A stretch of 64,000 nucleotides of DNA from an uncultured Clostridia bacterium (GTDB lineage Bacteria > Bacillota > Clostridia > Christensenellales > UBA1242), in assembly GCA_934778205.1 (NCBI GenBank), contig CAKVOD010000001.1, positions 126,769 through 190,768 on the forward strand, read 5' to 3'. This document shows, piece by piece, positions 8,469 through 11,323 of this stretch. Numbering within the stretch: the first letter of the stretch is position 1; each line of letters begins with the position of its first letter. The notes under the pieces are model-generated. The model searched no databases and had not been told where the DNA came from. It saw nothing but the letters and a program-made list of their open reading frames with translations. The position numbers were made by a program, and so were the translations under genes.

Positions 8469-9233
8469 ATGCCAATAATAAATCGTTCCACATTAGAATC
8501 AACATACACAAACCCCGACAAACAAGAAGTAACTGTAAAAACAAACAGCAACTATGCTGTCATTGAAAATATGACGAAAAGTTTTGAAAAACAAAAGTTA
8601 TCACAAAAAGACTCCGCGCGGGCGGGCGAGGAGTTGATTCAAGAAATAGAACTCAACAACAATTCGGAATTTATTGTCACTGACCTACACATCAAAGATA
8701 CGATGAGCGACGGCGCGACGTTCAAGGCGGGTTCAGTCAAAATCAACGGCAAAGCATTTGTTGATTTAGACCCTACGGCGGGCTTTTATCTCGATGAACC
8801 GATTAACCCATCAAACCCATATATGCTCATTACTTATTCAATCATTGTCGACGAAAAACCAATGGTTGACCACATTACAAACAAGGCGACAATTTCATAT
8901 AGCGTTGACAATTCGCACTTTAGTGAGGACACCAACACTGTGACAATCAACATCATCAGTGACAAGATCACAATTATTAAAACCGCCAGCCATAGTGTAG
9001 CAGTTTCGGGCACCGTTGTCACGTTCACGCACAAAATCACAAATGGTGACGCGTTTACTCACACCAAACTCGTGTTCACCGACCCGCTACCTGCGGGCAT
9101 ATCCTTTGTTGCGGGTAGCGTCGTGATTGATGGCGTGAGCAAGCCCGAACTTGACCCTGTTGTCGGGTTCACACTCGATGACTTGAACGGCGGTTCTACA
9201 ACAACAATCATTTTCGATGCAAAGGTGGAATAA
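8469..9233 (+). CDS. DUF11 / conserved-repeat-domain (TIGR01451-like) protein with two tandem domains, 254 aa
   Basis: ATG at 8469 is preceded by AAAGGAGAG. The longer ORF-track start (8364) lies inside a family-A repeat. Two repeats of the type KTAS..V..G..VTFT..ITN.G......V.FTDPLP.G..FV.GSV.I.G. Paralogous to the 17962-18726 ORF, also 254 aa. Confidence 0.8.
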   Translation: MPIINRSTLESTYTNPDKQEVTVKTNSNYAVIENMTKSFEKQKLSQKDSARAGEELIQEIELNNNSEFIVTDLHIKDTMSDGATFKAGSVKINGKAFVDLDPTAGFYLDEPINPSNPYMLITYSIIVDEKPMVDHITNKATISYSVDNSHFSEDTNTVTINIISDKITIIKTASHSVAVSGTVVTFTHKITNGDAFTHTKLVFTDPLPAGISFVAGSVVIDGVSKPELDPVVGFTLDDLNGGSTTTIIFDAKVE

Positions 9234-9649
9234 TGGAAAAAATTTTTGTCCTGAAATCAATTGTATACGATAGTAGATTTGATTCTTCCATATTTTTTGA
9301 GAGCAACCCTATTTACTTGCGTGTAACTGACAAGACCTACCGCAGAATCTCGCGCTACGACAAATTCAAGCTATGTCGCCACGATTCCCCATACTGCCCT
9401 TGCTGTGCTCAAATTGAATGCAAGGCATATGCGTGCGCGCCGTTCTGTCCGCGCAATTGCCATTTATTCAAGTGCGCTGAACAATTGCTCAAAGCGTGCG
9501 TTGCTCCGCATAAACCAGTTTTATTCAATGAACAACAACTTTACGTGTGTTTGAACCCGCAAAAGTGCTGTCTTTGCAAGCCTAAGCGCCCTTGCAATTG
9601 TTGTGCGCAACGAGTCGCGCCACAATTGCACGATGAACTAATTTTTTAA
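9233..9649 (+). CDS. Cysteine-rich small protein (17 Cys in the C-terminal ~90 aa), possible spore coat or exosporium-type protein
   Basis: TAATG stop/start overlap with the upstream DUF11 gene suggests translational coupling. CC, CxC and CPxC clusters are present. No family assignment possible by eye. Confidence 0.65.
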   Translation: MEKIFVLKSIVYDSRFDSSIFFESNPIYLRVTDKTYRRISRYDKFKLCRHDSPYCPCCAQIECKAYACAPFCPRNCHLFKCAEQLLKACVAPHKPVLFNEQQLYVCLNPQKCCLCKPKRPCNCCAQRVAPQLHDELIF

Positions 9650-9767
9650 CAAAACAAATCTTTTTGACAATCGACTTGATGACAAATGTAACAATCAACT
9701 TGTAGATAAATTAAACATAAGCAATATTAAAATTTGAATACTACAATACAAAAGAATAAGTTTAACA

Positions 9768-9797
9768 GAAAACTGCAAAACTATGTTTGCAGTTTTT
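9768..9797. terminator. Bidirectional rho-independent terminator
   Basis: GAAAACTGCAAA-ACTATG-TTTGCAGTTTTT lies between convergent genes and has A/T runs on both sides. Confidence 0.8.
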
Positions 9798-9822
9798 TAA
9801 ATCTAATGTTTTTTTGTCAAAA

Positions 9823-10899
9823 TTAATTATATGGATATGGACGTCCGCCACCAATAGGAATAAGTTTGTTCCACGTGTTGCGCCCAACAATGCCGTCGAC
9901 GACAAGCCCGTTTTCTTGCTGAAATTCGCGGACGGCGCGCTCGGTTTGTGCCCCAAATATGTTGTCGATTGTGCCGACTGGATAAAGTTTTGCAGTCAAT
10001 TTACGTTGCAAATAGCGAACGTATGAGCCTGTGCTACCTCGTCGCAATGTGACAACACTCGGGTCAAGCACAAGCAATCGGCGCCACGTGTTTTGCCCGA
10101 CAATTCCGTCGACAGTCAAGCCGTTTTGCGCTTGAAACGCTTGCACGGCACGCAACGTGTTTTGCCCAAACACGCCATCGGGCGTACCCGGATTGAAACC
10201 ATTTTGAATCAAATGATACTGCATACACTGCACCGCTCTACCGCGGTTTCCGACGCGAATTGTTGGCAACCCTTTCGTGCTAGTTAACCCGCCAATGTAT
10301 GGAACATCTAAAAAGTCGCATACGCCTTGGCACGCCTCATTTCCAACTTCTTTTTGATAATCTGGGTCAAGCATAAGTTTTGCTTCCGCAAAATTTGTCA
10401 TAAAGCCCGCTTCAATTAGCGTCGCGGGACAACGAACTCCTGTAAGCATTCCAACATCAAGCGGTTTGACCCCGCGCCCCGATTGCCCCGTGCCTTGCAA
10501 TAGTCTTTGATAGACATCGTTTGCAAGTTTTTGACTTTGTGCAGTCAAACTGTTGTTTGGCGAATAGTATACTTCAATTCCGTTTGCGTCACTGAACACA
10601 AGTTCGTTGCCAGCAGCGTTGTATGCAAAAGTCACAAGCGAGGCAAGTCGTTGTGCGTTGACACGCGCAATTCGCGTGTTGATTGATGTGTCCGTCCTTT
10701 CGGGTTTTACGTCAAAAATATTAAAACCCGTCCTCAAACACGCAATCAAAAAGTTGTTTTTGGTTGCGTAATTAAATTCGTTTTCATAAATACTGCGGTT
10801 TATGTAAGGCATAATCGGCGTGCGCTTGCCAATTGTTGGCGGATTAATTCCGTGTTCGTCATTTCCACCGATTATGTAATTTCCAGCGTTGTTTGCCAT
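9823..10899 (-). CDS. N-acetylmuramoyl-L-alanine amidase (Amidase_3-like) with two C-terminal PG_binding_1 repeats
   Basis: Amidase_3-like core (..GIEVYY.., ..PATLIEAGFMTN..). Two repeats of the type G.PDG.FG..T..AV..FQ...GL.VDGIVG..TW. ATG at 10899 is preferred over the TTG at 10920. Confidence 0.8.
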   Translation of the reverse strand: MANNAGNYIIGGNDEHGINPPTIGKRTPIMPYINRSIYENEFNYATKNNFLIACLRTGFNIFDVKPERTDTSINTRIARVNAQRLASLVTFAYNAAGNELVFSDANGIEVYYSPNNSLTAQSQKLANDVYQRLLQGTGQSGRGVKPLDVGMLTGVRCPATLIEAGFMTNFAEAKLMLDPDYQKEVGNEACQGVCDFLDVPYIGGLTSTKGLPTIRVGNRGRAVQCMQYHLIQNGFNPGTPDGVFGQNTLRAVQAFQAQNGLTVDGIVGQNTWRRLLVLDPSVVTLRRGSTGSYVRYLQRKLTAKLYPVGTIDNIFGAQTERAVREFQQENGLVVDGIVGRNTWNKLIPIGGGRPYPYN

Positions 10900-10966
10900 A
10901 GTCGTTTTTCTCCTTTGCAAAATATTCTATGCGCTAAACTCCGCTCTTGTGCATTCACTTTTTTGC

Positions 10967-11323
10967 TTATTTTTTCTTTTTGTCCGTTGCCACCATTCTT
11001 TGACAGCACTTGCTGTCGCAAAGATATGTGCCACAAACGGGATTCTTTTCGCCCGTCAAAACAATTATTCCATTTGCAACGCACTTGCCAGCCCTATTGA
11101 ACATACACGGCGCACCGCATTCAATGTTAGCCTTTTTGATGTGCCTAAAGTTTTCATACTTTGGCGTCTTTTGAAACATAGTTTTTGTAATGTCGTGAAC
11201 CTCTTTCCCCGCATCTTCCTCATACGTGTCGCAAACTGTGCTCCCTGCAACACAAACCCCCTTTGCCACACACACGCATTTATTATTGTACTTGCAATTT
11301 AGTTTTCTACAATTTATATCCAT
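10967..11323 (-). CDS. Protein with two DUF1540 domains (Cys-rich, sporulation-associated family)
   Basis: The DUF1540 pattern occurs twice (C..L.C.YN..C.C.A.G.CV.G...C.TY and ECGAPCMFNRAGKCVANGIIV...VCGTY). Confidence 0.7.
   Translation of the reverse strand: MDINCRKLNCKYNNKCVCVAKGVCVAGSTVCDTYEEDAGKEVHDITKTMFQKTPKYENFRHIKKANIECGAPCMFNRAGKCVANGIIVLTGEKNPVCGTYLCDSKCCQRMVATDKKKK

What the first reader, a model, noticed from the sequence alone, without database searches (positions are those of the whole stretch)
8469..11323. Putative spore-surface gene cluster: DUF11 protein translationally coupled to a 17-Cys protein, facing an amidase and a double-DUF1540 protein
The 254-aa two-domain DUF11 protein overlaps (TAATG) a small protein whose C-terminal 90 residues contain 17 cysteines. 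Convergent to these are an Amidase_3 enzyme with two PG_binding_1 repeats and a protein with two DUF1540 domains. Cys-rich proteins and DUF1540 are typical of spore coat or exosporium layers in Bacilli and Clostridia, and this genome encodes Spo0A. A second DUF11 paralogue of identical length stands alone at 17962-18726. DUF11 proteins as spore-surface or appendage building blocks would be poorly characterised biology. The assignment here is contextual only.
Basis: inference. Interest (0 to 1): 0.55.

Follow-up and report, generated by a model that had tools for sequence, protein, structure and literature searches.

The report
Split-domain fibre subunit and cysteine-rich cap
Two overlapping genes of an uncultured gut Clostridium seem to encode a building block that lacks the last piece of its own fold and carries that piece as a spare at its front end, so copies can chain head-to-tail, plus a cysteine-rich end-piece with the same spare part; this is probably a tough spore-surface fibre of a kind not yet described for this domain.

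Summary
A 254-aa DUF11 (now "CLIPPER") protein at 8469-9233 overlaps (TAATG) a 138-aa protein with 17 Cys. An Amidase_3 + 2x PG_binding_1 enzyme and a divergent double-DUF1540 protein lie convergent to them. A 35%-identical paralogue sits at 17962-18726 (minus strand), and Spo0A is in the window.

The new point is the architecture. The DUF11 protein is a register-shifted two-domain unit:
- Its C-terminal domain stops before the last two strands, which carry the isopeptide Asn.
- Its first 34 residues are homologous to exactly those strands.
- The split triad K171/D205/N5 is invariant in 27 homologues.

In 26 of 26 related loci a small gene follows at once. It encodes the same donor-like hairpin plus a Cys-rich tail. 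A sister clade adds an upstream "head" protein that ends in the same open domain.

Best reading: a sortase-free fibre of tip, shaft and cap, built by strand complementation between subunits and probably locked by an isopeptide bond.

A spore location is plausible but indirect. None of the proteins has a signal peptide. Sigma-K-type promoters sit on the neighbouring amidase and on sister-clade head genes. DUF1540 is also the domain of the C. difficile exosporium protein CdeA. All of this is in silico, and neither polymerisation nor the bond is shown.

The parts
8469..9233 (+). Shaft subunit gene (254 aa, DUF11/CLIPPER x2, no signal peptide)
   Evidence: ORF and RBS. Pfam/TIGRFAM hits. AF2 pLDDT 91.9.
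8469..8570 (+). N-terminal donor hairpin (aa 1-34; candidate isopeptide Asn5, codon 8481-8483)
   Evidence: An HMM of these 34 aa hits giant tandem CLIPPER proteins in a fixed register: 86 of 107 hits lie 5 aa after a domain body. Asn occupies HMM position 5 in 107 of 107 hits. hhalign against the domain-1 tail gives E=2.1e-5. N5, S27 and N28 are invariant in 27/27. AF2 predicts strands 3-14 and 20-32.
8571..8963 (+). Complete CLIPPER domain 1 (aa 35-165) with its own triad K43 / D77 / N138
   Evidence: Pfam match to profile positions 6-114 of 114. K43 is present in 26/27 and D77 in 27/27. Position 138 is N in 22/27 and D in 5/27.
8964..9230 (+). Open acceptor: truncated CLIPPER domain 2 (aa 166-254) with K171 (8979-8981) and D205 (9081-9083), lacking the Asn-bearing last two strands
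   Evidence: The Pfam DUF11 match stops at profile position 84 of 114, at the protein's C-terminus. K171 and D205 are invariant in 27/27. The region aligns to PDB 9IFR with K171 on the 'VVKTT' Lys and D205 on the 'LNDTL' Asp.
9233..9649 (+). Cap gene (138 aa), translationally coupled to the shaft gene
   Evidence: TAATG overlap and RBS. Orthologues at 91% and 57% identity. The same arrangement is found in L001-L006, L007-L009, L013 and L014.
9233..9334 (+). Donor-like N-terminal segment of the cap (aa 1-34; has the 'ESNP' motif but Leu7 where most caps have Asn)
   Evidence: hhalign against the N-termini of 24 sister-clade caps gives E=1.1e-4 over 33 columns in register. Those caps against shaft donors give E=4.3e-4. 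AF2 alone is disordered, pLDDT 23-29.
9374..9604 (+). Cys-rich tail of the cap (17 Cys, aa 48-124)
   Evidence: Cys count. The composition, but not the sequence, is conserved in all caps, which carry 6-27 Cys.
9769..9799 (.). Hairpin plus T-run between the convergent operons (likely bidirectional terminator)
   Evidence: Read from the sequence (AAAACTGCAAA-ACTATG-TTTGCAGTTTT TTA). The consensus scan did not list it.
9823..10899 (-). Amidase_3 + 2x PG_binding_1, no signal peptide; a candidate CwlC-like mother-cell lytic amidase. A neighbour, not a fibre part.
   Evidence: Pfam. The start at ATG 10899 comes from orthologue comparison. There are endolysin-type PHROG hits but no other phage genes nearby.
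10923..10950 (-). Sigma-K-type promoter of the amidase (AC-N17-CATAGAATA)
   Evidence: It matches the consensus perfectly. The -35 and -10 elements are conserved with a variable spacer in window, L001/L002/L013 and L007/L008/L014.
10967..11323 (-). Divergent double-DUF1540 protein (two units of 4 invariant Cys). A neighbour.
   Evidence: No direct Pfam hit. 8 of 13 homologues hit PF07561, best 3.7e-8.
17962..18726 (-). Second shaft paralogue (254 aa, 35% identical, same donor/acceptor layout, no cap gene beside it)
8422..8450 (+). Conserved block upstream of the shaft RBS (GCACATT-N14-AATACAAT). A weak sigma-E/K-like match of uncertain function.
   Evidence: The block is conserved in orthologues down to 61% protein identity. 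It has 2 mismatches to the sigma-E consensus, and such matches are common: 22 in the window against 11.8 expected.

Best explanation
The 254-aa protein is a shaft subunit built from a 'split' CLIPPER (DUF11, CnaA-like Ig) domain. It consists of a two-strand N-terminal hairpin carrying Asn5, then one complete CLIPPER domain, then a second CLIPPER domain that ends just before its own last two strands.

Proposed mechanism (inferred):
1. The hairpin of one molecule completes the open domain of another, which is donor-strand complementation. This gives a head-to-tail chain whose topology matches the tandem CLIPPER stalks of fibrillar adhesins.
2. Lys171 and Asp205 of the acceptor and Asn5 of the donor then form the canonical autocatalytic isopeptide bond, but between subunits.
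3. The 138-aa partner carries a related hairpin and no acceptor. It would therefore cap the acceptor end and attach it, through its 17-Cys tail, to a disulfide-cross-linked layer.

Sister-clade operons add a 'head' protein: a roughly 350-aa unknown domain followed by an open acceptor with no donor. That would sit at the other end. The logic is the same as FimH / FimA / PapH in chaperone-usher pili, but without chaperone, usher, sortase or secretion signal.

Because no part has a signal peptide, assembly would take place in the cytoplasm, most likely the mother cell during late sporulation, giving a spore-surface fibre.

Shown: the register-shifted architecture, the invariant split triad, the gene linkage and the donor/acceptor bookkeeping.
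Inferred: complementation between molecules, polymer length, the covalent bond, the role of the Cys tail and the spore location.
For: Architecture:
- Pfam DUF11 matches domain 2 only up to profile position 84 of 114, at the C-terminus.
- An HMM of residues 1-34, searched in 149 giant tandem CLIPPER proteins, hits in a fixed register. 86 of 107 hits start exactly 5 aa after a 'domain-2-like' body and end 0-3 aa before the next body.
- Asn occupies HMM position 5 in 107 of 107 hits.
- The A1 profile aligns as one stretch (positions 3-253) inside such arrays.
- hhalign of the N-terminus against the domain-1 tail gives E=2.1e-5.

Triad:
- N5, K171 and D205 are invariant in 27/27 shaft proteins down to 33% identity.
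- K171 and D205 align with the Lys and Asp motifs of the crystal structure 9IFR, whose Lys-Asn bond with a catalytic Asp is described in PMC12617251.
- The spacing from K171 to the C-terminus, plus the 5-aa gap, plus N5 is 93 residues. In domain 1 the K43-N138 spacing is 95.

Linkage and bookkeeping:
- A small ORF with a donor-like N-terminus (I-I-N-x-S ... S-N-P-V-T-T) and a Cys-rich tail starts -17 to +37 nt from the shaft stop in 26 of 26 loci. The window-clade orthologues have it too.
- Cap against shaft donor gives hhalign E=4.3e-4. Window cap against the other caps gives E=1.1e-4.
- Head proteins end exactly at the acceptor boundary and have no donor.
- The head acceptor is 48-64% identical to the shaft acceptor.
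- Donors (shaft and cap) and acceptors (head and shaft) balance only if complementation is between proteins.
- In Paenibacillus the same split falls between two 4-nt-overlapping genes.

Fold: AF2 gives pLDDT 91.9, with strands 3-14 and 20-32 followed by two Ig domains.

Spore link:
- Spo0A is in the window.
- None of the proteins has a signal peptide.
- A conserved sigma-K consensus precedes the adjacent amidase.
- The sigma-K consensus is found upstream of 6 of 19 head genes against 0.15 expected and 0 on the reverse strand.
- A DUF1540 neighbour is present, and DUF1540 is the domain of CdeA (PMC7677010).

Precedents: P29a/b (PMC5749712), BsaA 'exchange and lock' (PMC11580942), archaeal threads (PMC9715654) and A-ENA (PMC13111695).
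Against: - No multimer model or coordinates could be obtained. The AF2 monomer places the N-terminal hairpin with pLDDT 81-92, which may mean it docks onto domain 2 of the same chain. A side-by-side antiparallel packing of the two domains would allow that.
- The window-clade cap has Leu7 (Ile in L014) where other caps have the Asn, so here the cap could bind only non-covalently, or not at all. Its similarity to other caps rests on one hhalign comparison at E about 1e-4. HMMER alone gave E about 2.
- No head gene lies in the window or in the window-clade loci.
- Homopolymerisation cannot be told apart from a defined 1:1(:1) chain.
- The Pfam test on a 'domain 2 + N-terminus' chimera was no better than a shuffled control.
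- There are no expression or proteome data.
- The shaft gene's own promoter is unclear. The conserved block sits too close to the RBS for a typical promoter.
- The sister-clade upstream regions are phylogenetically related, so the sigma-K enrichment is overstated by a shuffle test.
Confidence: 0.5

Rival explanations
1. A defined short chain rather than a polymer. Each open acceptor is filled only by the donor of the next gene's product (head <- shaft <- cap; in the window shaft <- cap). This would give a fibrillar stalk of fixed length assembled from separately made pieces.
For: Gene order mirrors the proposed chain order, and the genes are translationally coupled. In Paenibacillus the split joins just two proteins. 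Cap donors differ systematically from shaft donors, with a shorter loop and a V-T-D-x-S-G-E motif, which hints at pair-specific fits.
Against: The head and shaft acceptors are each other's closest relatives, at 48-64% identity. A donor that fits one should therefore fit the other, which permits shaft-shaft joining. In the window clade there is no head, so the shaft donor would have no partner other than another shaft.
Confidence: 0.22
2. A compact monomer that is a circular permutation. The N-terminal hairpin completes domain 2 of the same chain and K171-N5 is an intramolecular staple. The Cys-rich protein is an unrelated co-expressed coat-like protein.
For: The AF2 monomer gives the hairpin high confidence, pLDDT 81-92. 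Topologically, the two domains could pack antiparallel.
Against: - The junction lengths equal those of extended tandem arrays.
- pTM is only 0.64 despite pLDDT 92.
- Head proteins have an open acceptor and no donor, and caps have a donor-like hairpin and no acceptor. Both make sense only with complementation between proteins.
- The Paenibacillus split lies between adjacent genes.
Confidence: 0.15
3. A fibre or matrix component of vegetative cells (adhesin or biofilm), exported by a non-classical route or released by lysis, and unrelated to spores.
For: CLIPPER domains are typical of cell-surface fibrillar adhesins (PMC12617251). No sporulation promoter could be assigned to the shaft gene.
Against: - The components have no signal peptide, LPXTG motif, sortase or SipW.
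- Cys-rich proteins without signal peptides are characteristic of coat and exosporium layers.
- Sigma-K-type promoters sit on the neighbouring amidase and on sister-clade head genes.
Confidence: 0.1
4. A prophage remnant, with the DUF11 protein as a virion decoration or fibre and the amidase as its endolysin.
For: The amidase hits endolysin PHROGs.
Against: No PHROG hit for the shaft, the cap, the DUF1540 protein or the flanking genes. The surroundings are housekeeping genes: GAPDH, AsnRS, PepF in the window and PheST in L007. The operon occurs in varied chromosomal contexts.
Confidence: 0.03

Closest known systems
CLIPPER (DUF11, PF01345) stalk domains of fibrillar adhesins; crystal structure PDB 9IFR (PMC12617251)
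   Same: Same domain family. The same Lys / Asp / Asn motif positions are present. The 254-aa protein is collinear with a window cut out of a tandem CLIPPER array.
   Different: Known CLIPPER domains are complete, tandem, secreted and anchored, and their isopeptide bond is intramolecular. Here the domain is split across the two ends of a short protein without a signal peptide, so the bond would have to form between molecules, or across the chain ends.
Chaperone-usher pili (FimH/PapG tip, FimA/PapA shaft, PapH terminator); from general knowledge
   Same: An incomplete Ig-like fold is completed by an N-terminal extension of the next subunit. The tip protein is a binding domain plus an acceptor without a donor. 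The terminator supplies a donor but offers no acceptor.
   Different: The donor is a two-strand hairpin rather than one strand. There is no chaperone, usher, periplasm or signal peptide. A covalent lock is predicted. The fold family is unrelated.
BsaA (TasA family) 'donor-strand exchange and lock' in C. perfringens (PMC11580942) and Sulfolobus thread filaments (PMC9715654)
   Same: Self-assembly by donor-strand complementation, followed by an intermolecular Lys-Asn isopeptide bond catalysed by an acidic residue.
   Different: Those subunits are secreted (signal peptide, SipW) and belong to other folds. No TasA/camelysin Pfam hit was found here. Here the site is a canonical intramolecular isopeptide site that has been split.
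Endospore appendages: S-/L-ENA, F-ENA (PMC12357932) and A-ENA (PMC13111695)
   Same: All are sortase-free fibres made in the mother cell from small subunits with N-terminal connectors. S-/L-ENA use Cys-based cross-links and A-ENA uses autocatalytic isopeptide bonds. F-Anchor-3 of C. aceticum even contains DUF11 domains and a Cys-rich CsxA-like anchor.
   Different: No DUF3992 or DUF4183 domain is present. The joining principle proposed here, a split CLIPPER domain, is not described in those papers.
C. taeniosporum appendage proteins P29a/P29b, CRD1/CRD2 and B. cereus CrdA-C (PMC5749712)
   Same: These are DUF11 proteins without a known assembly mechanism that are physically part of spore appendages. 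P29a/b are a paralogue pair of about 269 aa. A 564-aa CRD protein is encoded upstream, and the genes carry sigma-K-type promoters.
   Different: The repeat coordinates in their Table S3 (22-92 and 149-219 of 269) suggest a complete second domain and a shorter N-terminus, which is a different register. The partners there are collagen-like glycoproteins, not Cys-rich caps. The sequences could not be obtained, so homology of layout is untested.
SpyTag/SpyCatcher and isopeptag/pilin-C (engineered split CnaB domains); from general knowledge
   Same: A strand bearing one reactive residue is separated from the rest of an isopeptide domain and reacts spontaneously on docking.
   Different: Those are laboratory constructs from CnaB domains. 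This would be a natural split of a CnaA-like domain, used for polymerisation.
CwlC (B. subtilis sigma-K-dependent mother-cell lytic amidase; general knowledge) and CdeA (C. difficile DUF1540 exosporium protein, PMC7677010), for the two neighbouring genes
   Same: The amidase has Amidase_3, no signal peptide and a sigma-K-type promoter. The other neighbour is a small protein with 4-Cys DUF1540 units.
   Different: The wall-binding module is PG_binding_1, not SPOR. The DUF1540 protein is too divergent for a direct Pfam hit. Neither function was tested.

Membership tests
Pfam PF01345 DUF11 / CLIPPER | HMM match above the gathering score | tested here: met
   42.6 bits (cut-off 24.6) for 8469-9233 and 63.0 bits for the paralogue. 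TIGR01451 matches twice in each.
Pfam PF01345 DUF11 / CLIPPER | Lys (first strand), catalytic Asp and Asn (penultimate strand) at the canonical positions | tested here: met
   Domain 1 has K43/D77/N138. The split domain has K171/D205 plus N5, invariant in 27/27.
Pfam PF01345 DUF11 / CLIPPER | An isopeptide bond actually formed (intra- or intermolecular) | not testable with these tools
   This needs mass spectrometry, a crystal or cryo-EM structure, or at least model coordinates, which the tool does not return.
Donor-strand-complemented fibres (as a mechanism class) | A subunit with an incomplete Ig-like fold plus an N-terminal extension homologous to the missing strand(s) | tested here: met
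   The Pfam match is truncated at position 84 of 114. The N-terminal HMM falls in register in tandem arrays in 86 of 107 hits. hhalign gives E=2.1e-5.
Donor-strand-complemented fibres (as a mechanism class) | Complementation occurs between subunits | tested here: inconclusive
   It is supported by the donor/acceptor bookkeeping of head, shaft and cap and by the Paenibacillus split genes. No multimer prediction was possible, and the AF2 monomer is ambiguous.
Sortase-assembled Gram-positive pili | Signal peptide, LPXTG sorting signal and a sortase gene nearby | tested here: not met
   The sequences have no hydrophobic N-terminus or LPXTG. No sortase is present in the window neighbourhood or in related loci.
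ENA endospore appendages (DUF3992 S-/L-ENA; DUF4183 F-ENA) | The subunit carries DUF3992 or DUF4183 | tested here: not met
   Pfam scans of the shaft and the cap show neither domain.
TasA/BsaA family | TasA/camelysin-type fold, signal peptide and SipW | tested here: not met
   No such Pfam hit and no signal peptide.
C. taeniosporum P29 appendage protein family | Sequence homology and the same domain register as P29a/b | not tested
The Table S3 repeat coordinates suggest a different register.
Pfam PF07561 DUF1540 (118-aa neighbour) | HMM match and four conserved Cys per unit | tested here: inconclusive
   The window protein gives no hit at E<=5. 8 of 13 homologues hit, best 3.7e-8. Two sets of four invariant Cys are present.
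Amidase_3 / PG_binding_1 cell-wall hydrolase | HMM matches above the gathering score | tested here: met
   Amidase_3 scores 71.7 bits and PG_binding_1 133.3 bits over two repeats.
Sigma-K regulon (late mother cell) | AC-N16/17-CATAnnnTA promoter at a suitable distance from the start codon | tested here: met
   This applies to the amidase only. The match is perfect and conserved in 7 loci of three divergence levels.
Sigma-K / sigma-E regulon (shaft-cap operon) | A recognisable mother-cell promoter upstream of 8469 | tested here: inconclusive
   Only a sigma-E-like block with 2 mismatches lies very close to the RBS. Sister-clade head genes show the sigma-K consensus in 6 of 19 regions.
Spore coat / exosporium protein | Presence in purified spores, or expression specific to sporulation | not testable with these tools
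   The organism is uncultured. No transcriptome or proteome is available here.

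The most novel reading that the evidence does not exclude
A previously unrecognised class of modular fibre that is sortase-, chaperone- and secretion-independent. Canonical intramolecular isopeptide (CLIPPER) domains have been split between polypeptides, so that tip, shaft and Cys-rich anchor proteins plug into each other and ligate themselves. This would be a natural SpyTag/SpyCatcher. 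Assembly would take place in the mother-cell cytoplasm on the spores of many uncultured gut Clostridia. The same split is used between adjacent genes in Paenibacillus.
Probability: 0.4. Interest if true: 0.82.

Novelty: new variant of a known kind. Interest (0 to 1): 0.7.

Why it matters
If the model holds, it gives a concrete and easily testable assembly mechanism for a family of DUF11 spore-appendage-type proteins. Those proteins have been known since the C. taeniosporum work without any structural explanation.

It would also:
- add a fourth joining chemistry and logic to endospore appendages, beside the disulfide-linked S-/L-ENA, the hook-linked F-ENA and the isopeptide-linked alpha-helical A-ENA;
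- show that intramolecular isopeptide domains can evolve into intermolecular ligation modules, which matters for protein engineering as a source of natural, orthogonal Tag/Catcher pairs from a CnaA-like fold;
- point to a surface structure on spores of abundant but uncultured gut Clostridia, where spore adhesion and transmission between hosts are poorly understood;
- improve annotation. The cap genes are short, compositionally odd and miscalled by gene finders, for example in L007 where a spurious ORF on the opposite strand is called instead.

Tried and rejected
- Pfam scan of artificial 'domain 2 + N-terminus' chimeras. The score gain (34.6 to 37.4 bits) equalled that of a shuffled N-terminus (36.9), so the test was uninformative. 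It was replaced by the register test in tandem arrays.
- Plain pairwise alignment of the N-terminus against the rest of the protein gave only weak scores.
- HMMER search of the sister-clade cap N-terminal HMM against the window cap gave E of about 2, not significant. Only profile-profile comparison gave a signal.
- Foldseek of the AF2 model against the PDB returned only generic tandem Ig and isopeptide adhesin domains at TM about 0.4. No fibre structure was found. A PDB sequence search found only 9IFR.
- AF2 of the cap protein with 3 sequences gave pLDDT 35.7, so no usable model.
- Model coordinates are not exposed, so cis versus trans docking and the K171-N5 distance could not be measured.
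- A multimer or fused-dimer prediction was not attempted.
- Rfam scans of the upstream region and of a sister-clade leader found nothing above threshold.
- The generic sigma-70 promoter and terminator scan was uninformative.
- The sigma-E-like match upstream of the shaft gene was rejected as evidence on its own, because such matches are frequent.
- The prophage hypothesis was rejected: apart from the amidase there are no PHROG hits.
- A search for a head-protein homologue in the window and in window-clade loci found none.
- C. taeniosporum P29 sequences could not be retrieved. Only repeat coordinates from Table S3 were available.
- A metagenome scan for the upstream hairpin element found nothing.

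Full report

Yes. The ORF list shows 8364/8469-9233(+), 9233-9649(+), 9823-10920(-) and 10967-11323(-).

- The DUF11 gene. The ATG at 8469 follows a strong RBS. It is the start used by all orthologues, whose products begin M-x-I-I-N-R-S. The 254-aa product hits Pfam DUF11 (8.9e-11) and TIGR01451 twice (3.3e-20).
- The Cys-rich gene. The stop of the DUF11 gene shares an A with the ATG of a 138-aa ORF that has its own AAGGTGG RBS. All 17 of its Cys lie between residues 48 and 124. It matches no Pfam, NCBIfam or PHROG family. Only two relatives turned up among 5.8 billion clustered proteins.
- The amidase. The convergent gene carries Amidase_3 and two PG_binding_1 repeats. Orthologue comparison puts its real start at the ATG at 10899.
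- The 118-aa protein. It has no direct Pfam hit even at E<=5. However, 8 of 13 homologues hit DUF1540 (best 3.7e-8), and two sets of four Cys are invariant.
- The second DUF11 protein. 17962-18726 is on the minus strand, is also 254 aa and is 35% identical.
- Spo0A is at 34901-35674.

**2. What the DUF11 protein is**

DUF11 was renamed CLIPPER in 2025. It is a CnaA-like Ig domain with an intramolecular Lys-Asn isopeptide bond catalysed by an Asp, solved as PDB 9IFR (PMC12617251).

Several observations show that the window protein is not simply 'two DUF11 domains'.

- The Pfam match to the C-terminal domain stops at profile position 84 of 114, at the very end of the protein. Domain 1 matches through position 114.
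- All ten first homologues end at the same point and share an invariant N-terminus, M-x-I-x-N.
- A profile of the family was searched against 1.84 billion representatives. It aligned as one continuous stretch (positions 3-253) inside giant tandem CLIPPER proteins.
- I built an HMM from the first 34 residues alone and searched the 149 best giant proteins. Of 107 hits, 86 start exactly 5 residues after the end of a body resembling domain 2 and end 0-3 residues before the next body. The residue at HMM position 5 is Asn in 107 of 107 hits.
- Profile-profile comparison of the N-terminus with the tail of domain 1 gives E=2.1e-5 over the full 38 columns, with N5 on the column of N138.

The protein is therefore a window cut from a tandem CLIPPER array with the cut shifted by two strands. 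It reads: [last two strands] - [complete domain] - [domain lacking its last two strands].

The two triads behave as follows.

- Domain 1 has its own triad K43/D77/N138. The third position is N in 22 and D in 5 of 27 homologues.
- The split domain has K171 and D205 at the C-terminal end and N5 at the N-terminal end. All three are invariant in 27 proteins down to 33% identity.
- K171 and D205 align with the Lys and Asp motifs of 9IFR.

AF2 with a 10-sequence alignment gives pLDDT 91.9 and pTM 0.64. It predicts two long N-terminal strands (3-14 and 20-32) followed by two Ig domains. No solved structure resembles the whole protein.

**3. The partner and the wider system**

Close orthologues keep the overlapping Cys-rich gene, at 57% identity in L001-L006.

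In the 61%-identity orthologues (L007-L009, L014) the public gene call shows a 79-aa ORF on the opposite strand. The real conserved gene is a 124-aa Cys-rich ORF that starts at the shaft stop.

A scan of one genome per GTDB species found 52 loci. Twenty-six of them encode 252-263-aa proteins with the same layout. All are from uncultured gut Clostridia, including Ca. Scatosoma and MAGs labelled Christensenellaceae.

In 26 of 26 of these loci a small ORF starts between -17 and +37 nt from the shaft stop, mostly at +1. It encodes about 32 conserved residues (M-x-x-I-I-N-x-S-x-V-T-D-x-S-G-E-x-P-I-x-T-x-S-N-P-V-T-T-V-I), then a Pro-rich linker, then a tail with 6-27 Cys.

- This N-terminus resembles the shaft's donor hairpin in its I-x-N-x-S and S-N motifs. 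hhalign gives E=4.3e-4.
- The window-clade cap N-terminus aligns with it in register at E=1.1e-4.
- The window cap has Leu7 where the others have the Asn.

In most sister-clade loci a 'head' gene lies directly upstream. It is 567 aa, or 440 aa in some. It consists of about 350 residues with no Pfam or PDB match, followed by one or no complete CLIPPER domain and a final body that ends exactly at the acceptor boundary. It has no donor-like N-terminus. Its open body is 48-64% identical to the shaft's open body, closer than any other pair of bodies. One species has head and shaft fused into an 830-aa protein.

In Paenibacillus a protein of about 2044 aa ends at the acceptor boundary. It overlaps by 4 nt a 559-aa protein that begins with a donor hairpin (L-L-Q-N-Q-S-L-V-R-F ... 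A-Y-S-N-T-V).

Seventeen of the 149 giant proteins also end with an open acceptor.

**4. How it most likely works**

Donors are found on the shaft and the cap. Acceptors are found on the head and the shaft. An acceptor-only protein and a donor-only protein make sense only if hairpins complete domains of other molecules.

The natural product is a chain: head <- shaft(n) <- cap. This is the same logic as tip adhesin, major subunit and terminator in chaperone-usher pili, which I cite from general knowledge.

Docking would rebuild a canonical CLIPPER active site from K171 and D205 of one subunit and N5 of the next. A spontaneous intermolecular isopeptide bond is therefore expected. It has been shown experimentally for BsaA (PMC11580942) and archaeal threads (PMC9715654), and engineered in SpyTag/SpyCatcher.

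The cap's Cys-rich tail would tie the end of the chain into a disulfide-linked layer.

- Shown here: the architecture, the invariance of the split triad, the gene linkage and the bookkeeping.
- Inferred: complementation between molecules, polymer length, the bond itself and the role of the tail.

The main alternatives are a fixed-length chain and a cis-closed monomer. The AF2 monomer's confident hairpin cannot tell these apart, because coordinates are not returned.

**5. Is it a spore structure?**

The evidence is indirect.

- None of the three component types has a signal peptide, an LPXTG motif or a nearby sortase or SipW. In a Gram-positive organism this points to assembly in the cytoplasm, as for coat, exosporium and ENA proteins.
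- The organism has Spo0A.
- The adjacent amidase also lacks a signal peptide. It is preceded by a perfect sigma-K consensus (AC-N17-CATAGAATA, 10923-10950 on the minus strand). The -35 and -10 elements are conserved and the spacer varies across three divergence levels. This resembles the sigma-K-dependent mother-cell amidase CwlC (general knowledge).
- Upstream of sister-clade head genes the full sigma-K consensus occurs in 6 of 19 regions, against 0.15 expected from shuffles and 0 on the reverse strand. Its position is consistent. These sequences are related, so the statistic is generous.
- DUF1540 is the domain of the C. difficile exosporium protein CdeA (PMC7677010). It also tracks the endospore phenotype (PMC2955703).
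- DUF11 proteins P29a/b are structural parts of C. taeniosporum spore appendages, and CrdA-C are spore proteins of the B. cereus group (PMC5749712). F-Anchor-3 of C. aceticum combines DUF11 domains with a CsxA-like anchor (PMC12357932).

Points against:

- The shaft gene's own promoter is not identified. The conserved block GCACATT-N14-AATACAAT (8422-8450) is only a match to the sigma-E consensus with 2 mismatches. Such matches are common in the window, and this one sits very close to the RBS.
- The amidase and DUF1540 genes accompany the pair only in the window's own clade.
- A prophage origin is unlikely.

**6. Comparison and novelty**

The protein is a member of the CLIPPER/DUF11 family, and it behaves on paper like a donor-strand-complemented, isopeptide-locked fibre.

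It is not a member of the sortase-pilus, ENA (DUF3992/DUF4183) or TasA/BsaA families. The defining features of each were tested and not met.

Its relation to P29a/b is unresolved. Their published repeat coordinates suggest a complete second domain.

Searches of the paper library found no description of a split CLIPPER domain or of this operon type.

I rate it a new variant of a known kind. The mechanism class is known. The family, the fold used, the hairpin donor, the cytoplasmic setting and the tip-shaft-cap organisation are new.

**7. Verdict**

My confidence by step:

| Claim | Confidence |
|---|---|
| Register-shifted architecture | about 0.9 |
| Complementation between proteins | about 0.7 |
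| True polymer | about 0.5 |
| Covalent lock | about 0.5 |
| Spore location | about 0.5-0.6 |

Interest is 0.7. The hypothesis is specific, cheap to test, and would matter for both spore biology and protein engineering. It rests entirely on sequence analysis.

Noticed in passing
window 7634-8468: The 835-nt intergenic region upstream of the shaft gene is strongly self-complementary. It contains nested inverted repeats: 7925-7979/8263-8317, 8082-8096/8213-8227 (15 nt, perfect) and 8111-8140/8166-8195. Region 7915-8325 folds into one long hairpin of -131.8 kcal/mol with z=-7.65. The outer 49-nt inverted pair, 7673-7721/8341-8389, is also present in L013, but there the arms are only 197 nt apart. 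The roughly 400-nt hairpin therefore looks like an insertion, possibly MITE-like. There is no Rfam match, and an exact 21-mer was not found in the metagenome contigs.
   Followed up: partly
L016, L017, L022, L023, L025-L028, L031, L032, L036, L053: the ~70 nt before the head gene start: A conserved leader element lies between the sigma-K-like -10 and the RBS of sister-clade head genes. It is a roughly 20-bp hairpin with conserved outer arms (A)CTACATAT ... ATATGTAG(T), inner stems that vary with compensating changes, and a run of 6-8 T directly before the Shine-Dalgarno sequence. The free energy is -18 to -29 kcal/mol. It looks like a terminator or attenuator, or a 5' stabiliser. No Rfam family matches.
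   Followed up: partly
L039-L041, L043-L046 (Paenibacillus spp.), about 9130-11355 in each locus: A protein of about 1860-2087 aa without an obvious signal peptide ends in an open CLIPPER acceptor (...TFQVQVTTI*). It overlaps by 4 nt a 477-561-aa protein that begins with a donor hairpin. This is the same split, here between adjacent genes in cultured spore formers, which makes them a convenient experimental system.
   Followed up: partly
L007 8765-9139 (+), also L008 and L009: The public gene call lists a 79-aa ORF on the minus strand (8858-9097). The conserved 124-aa Cys-rich cap gene on the plus strand is missed. Cap genes are probably under-annotated in general.
   Followed up: yes
window 9823-10950 (-): The amidase most likely starts at ATG 10899, not at the TTG at 10920. 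It has a perfect, conserved sigma-K-type promoter at 10923-10950.
   Followed up: yes
window 74-7633 (+): A 2519-aa protein has an N-terminal signal or anchor sequence and a C-terminal transmembrane helix. Its only Pfam hit is a sub-threshold CARDB match. It lies upstream of the shaft gene in the closest relative too (L001), but not in L007 or L014. Its function is unknown and it is probably unrelated to the fibre.
   Followed up: no
window 11523-12854 (+), 12970-14370 (-), 14568-15155 (+), 15251-16519 (+): Four consecutive genes have no significant Pfam, NCBIfam or PHROG family; the only NCBIfam matches (vanR-A for 11523-12854, MGT for 15251-16519) lie far below their cut-offs. The 466-aa product begins with a lipoprotein-type signal (…VVMTACGS).
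   Followed up: no
window 51570-52688 (-): dnaN is present (TIGR00663, 1e-81) and YidC is nearby, so the window probably lies close to the replication origin.
   Followed up: no
L047, L049-L052, L058, L060 (B. cereus group): CLIPPER-repeat proteins of 2121 and 2520 aa start, in the reading from the first ATG of the ORF (start codons not checked), inside a domain body (MAIATIGSRLTYTIVVQNTGT...), after the Lys-bearing first strand, and have no signal peptide. They may be the CrdA-C spore proteins cited in PMC5749712, and they may use a different split point.
   Followed up: no
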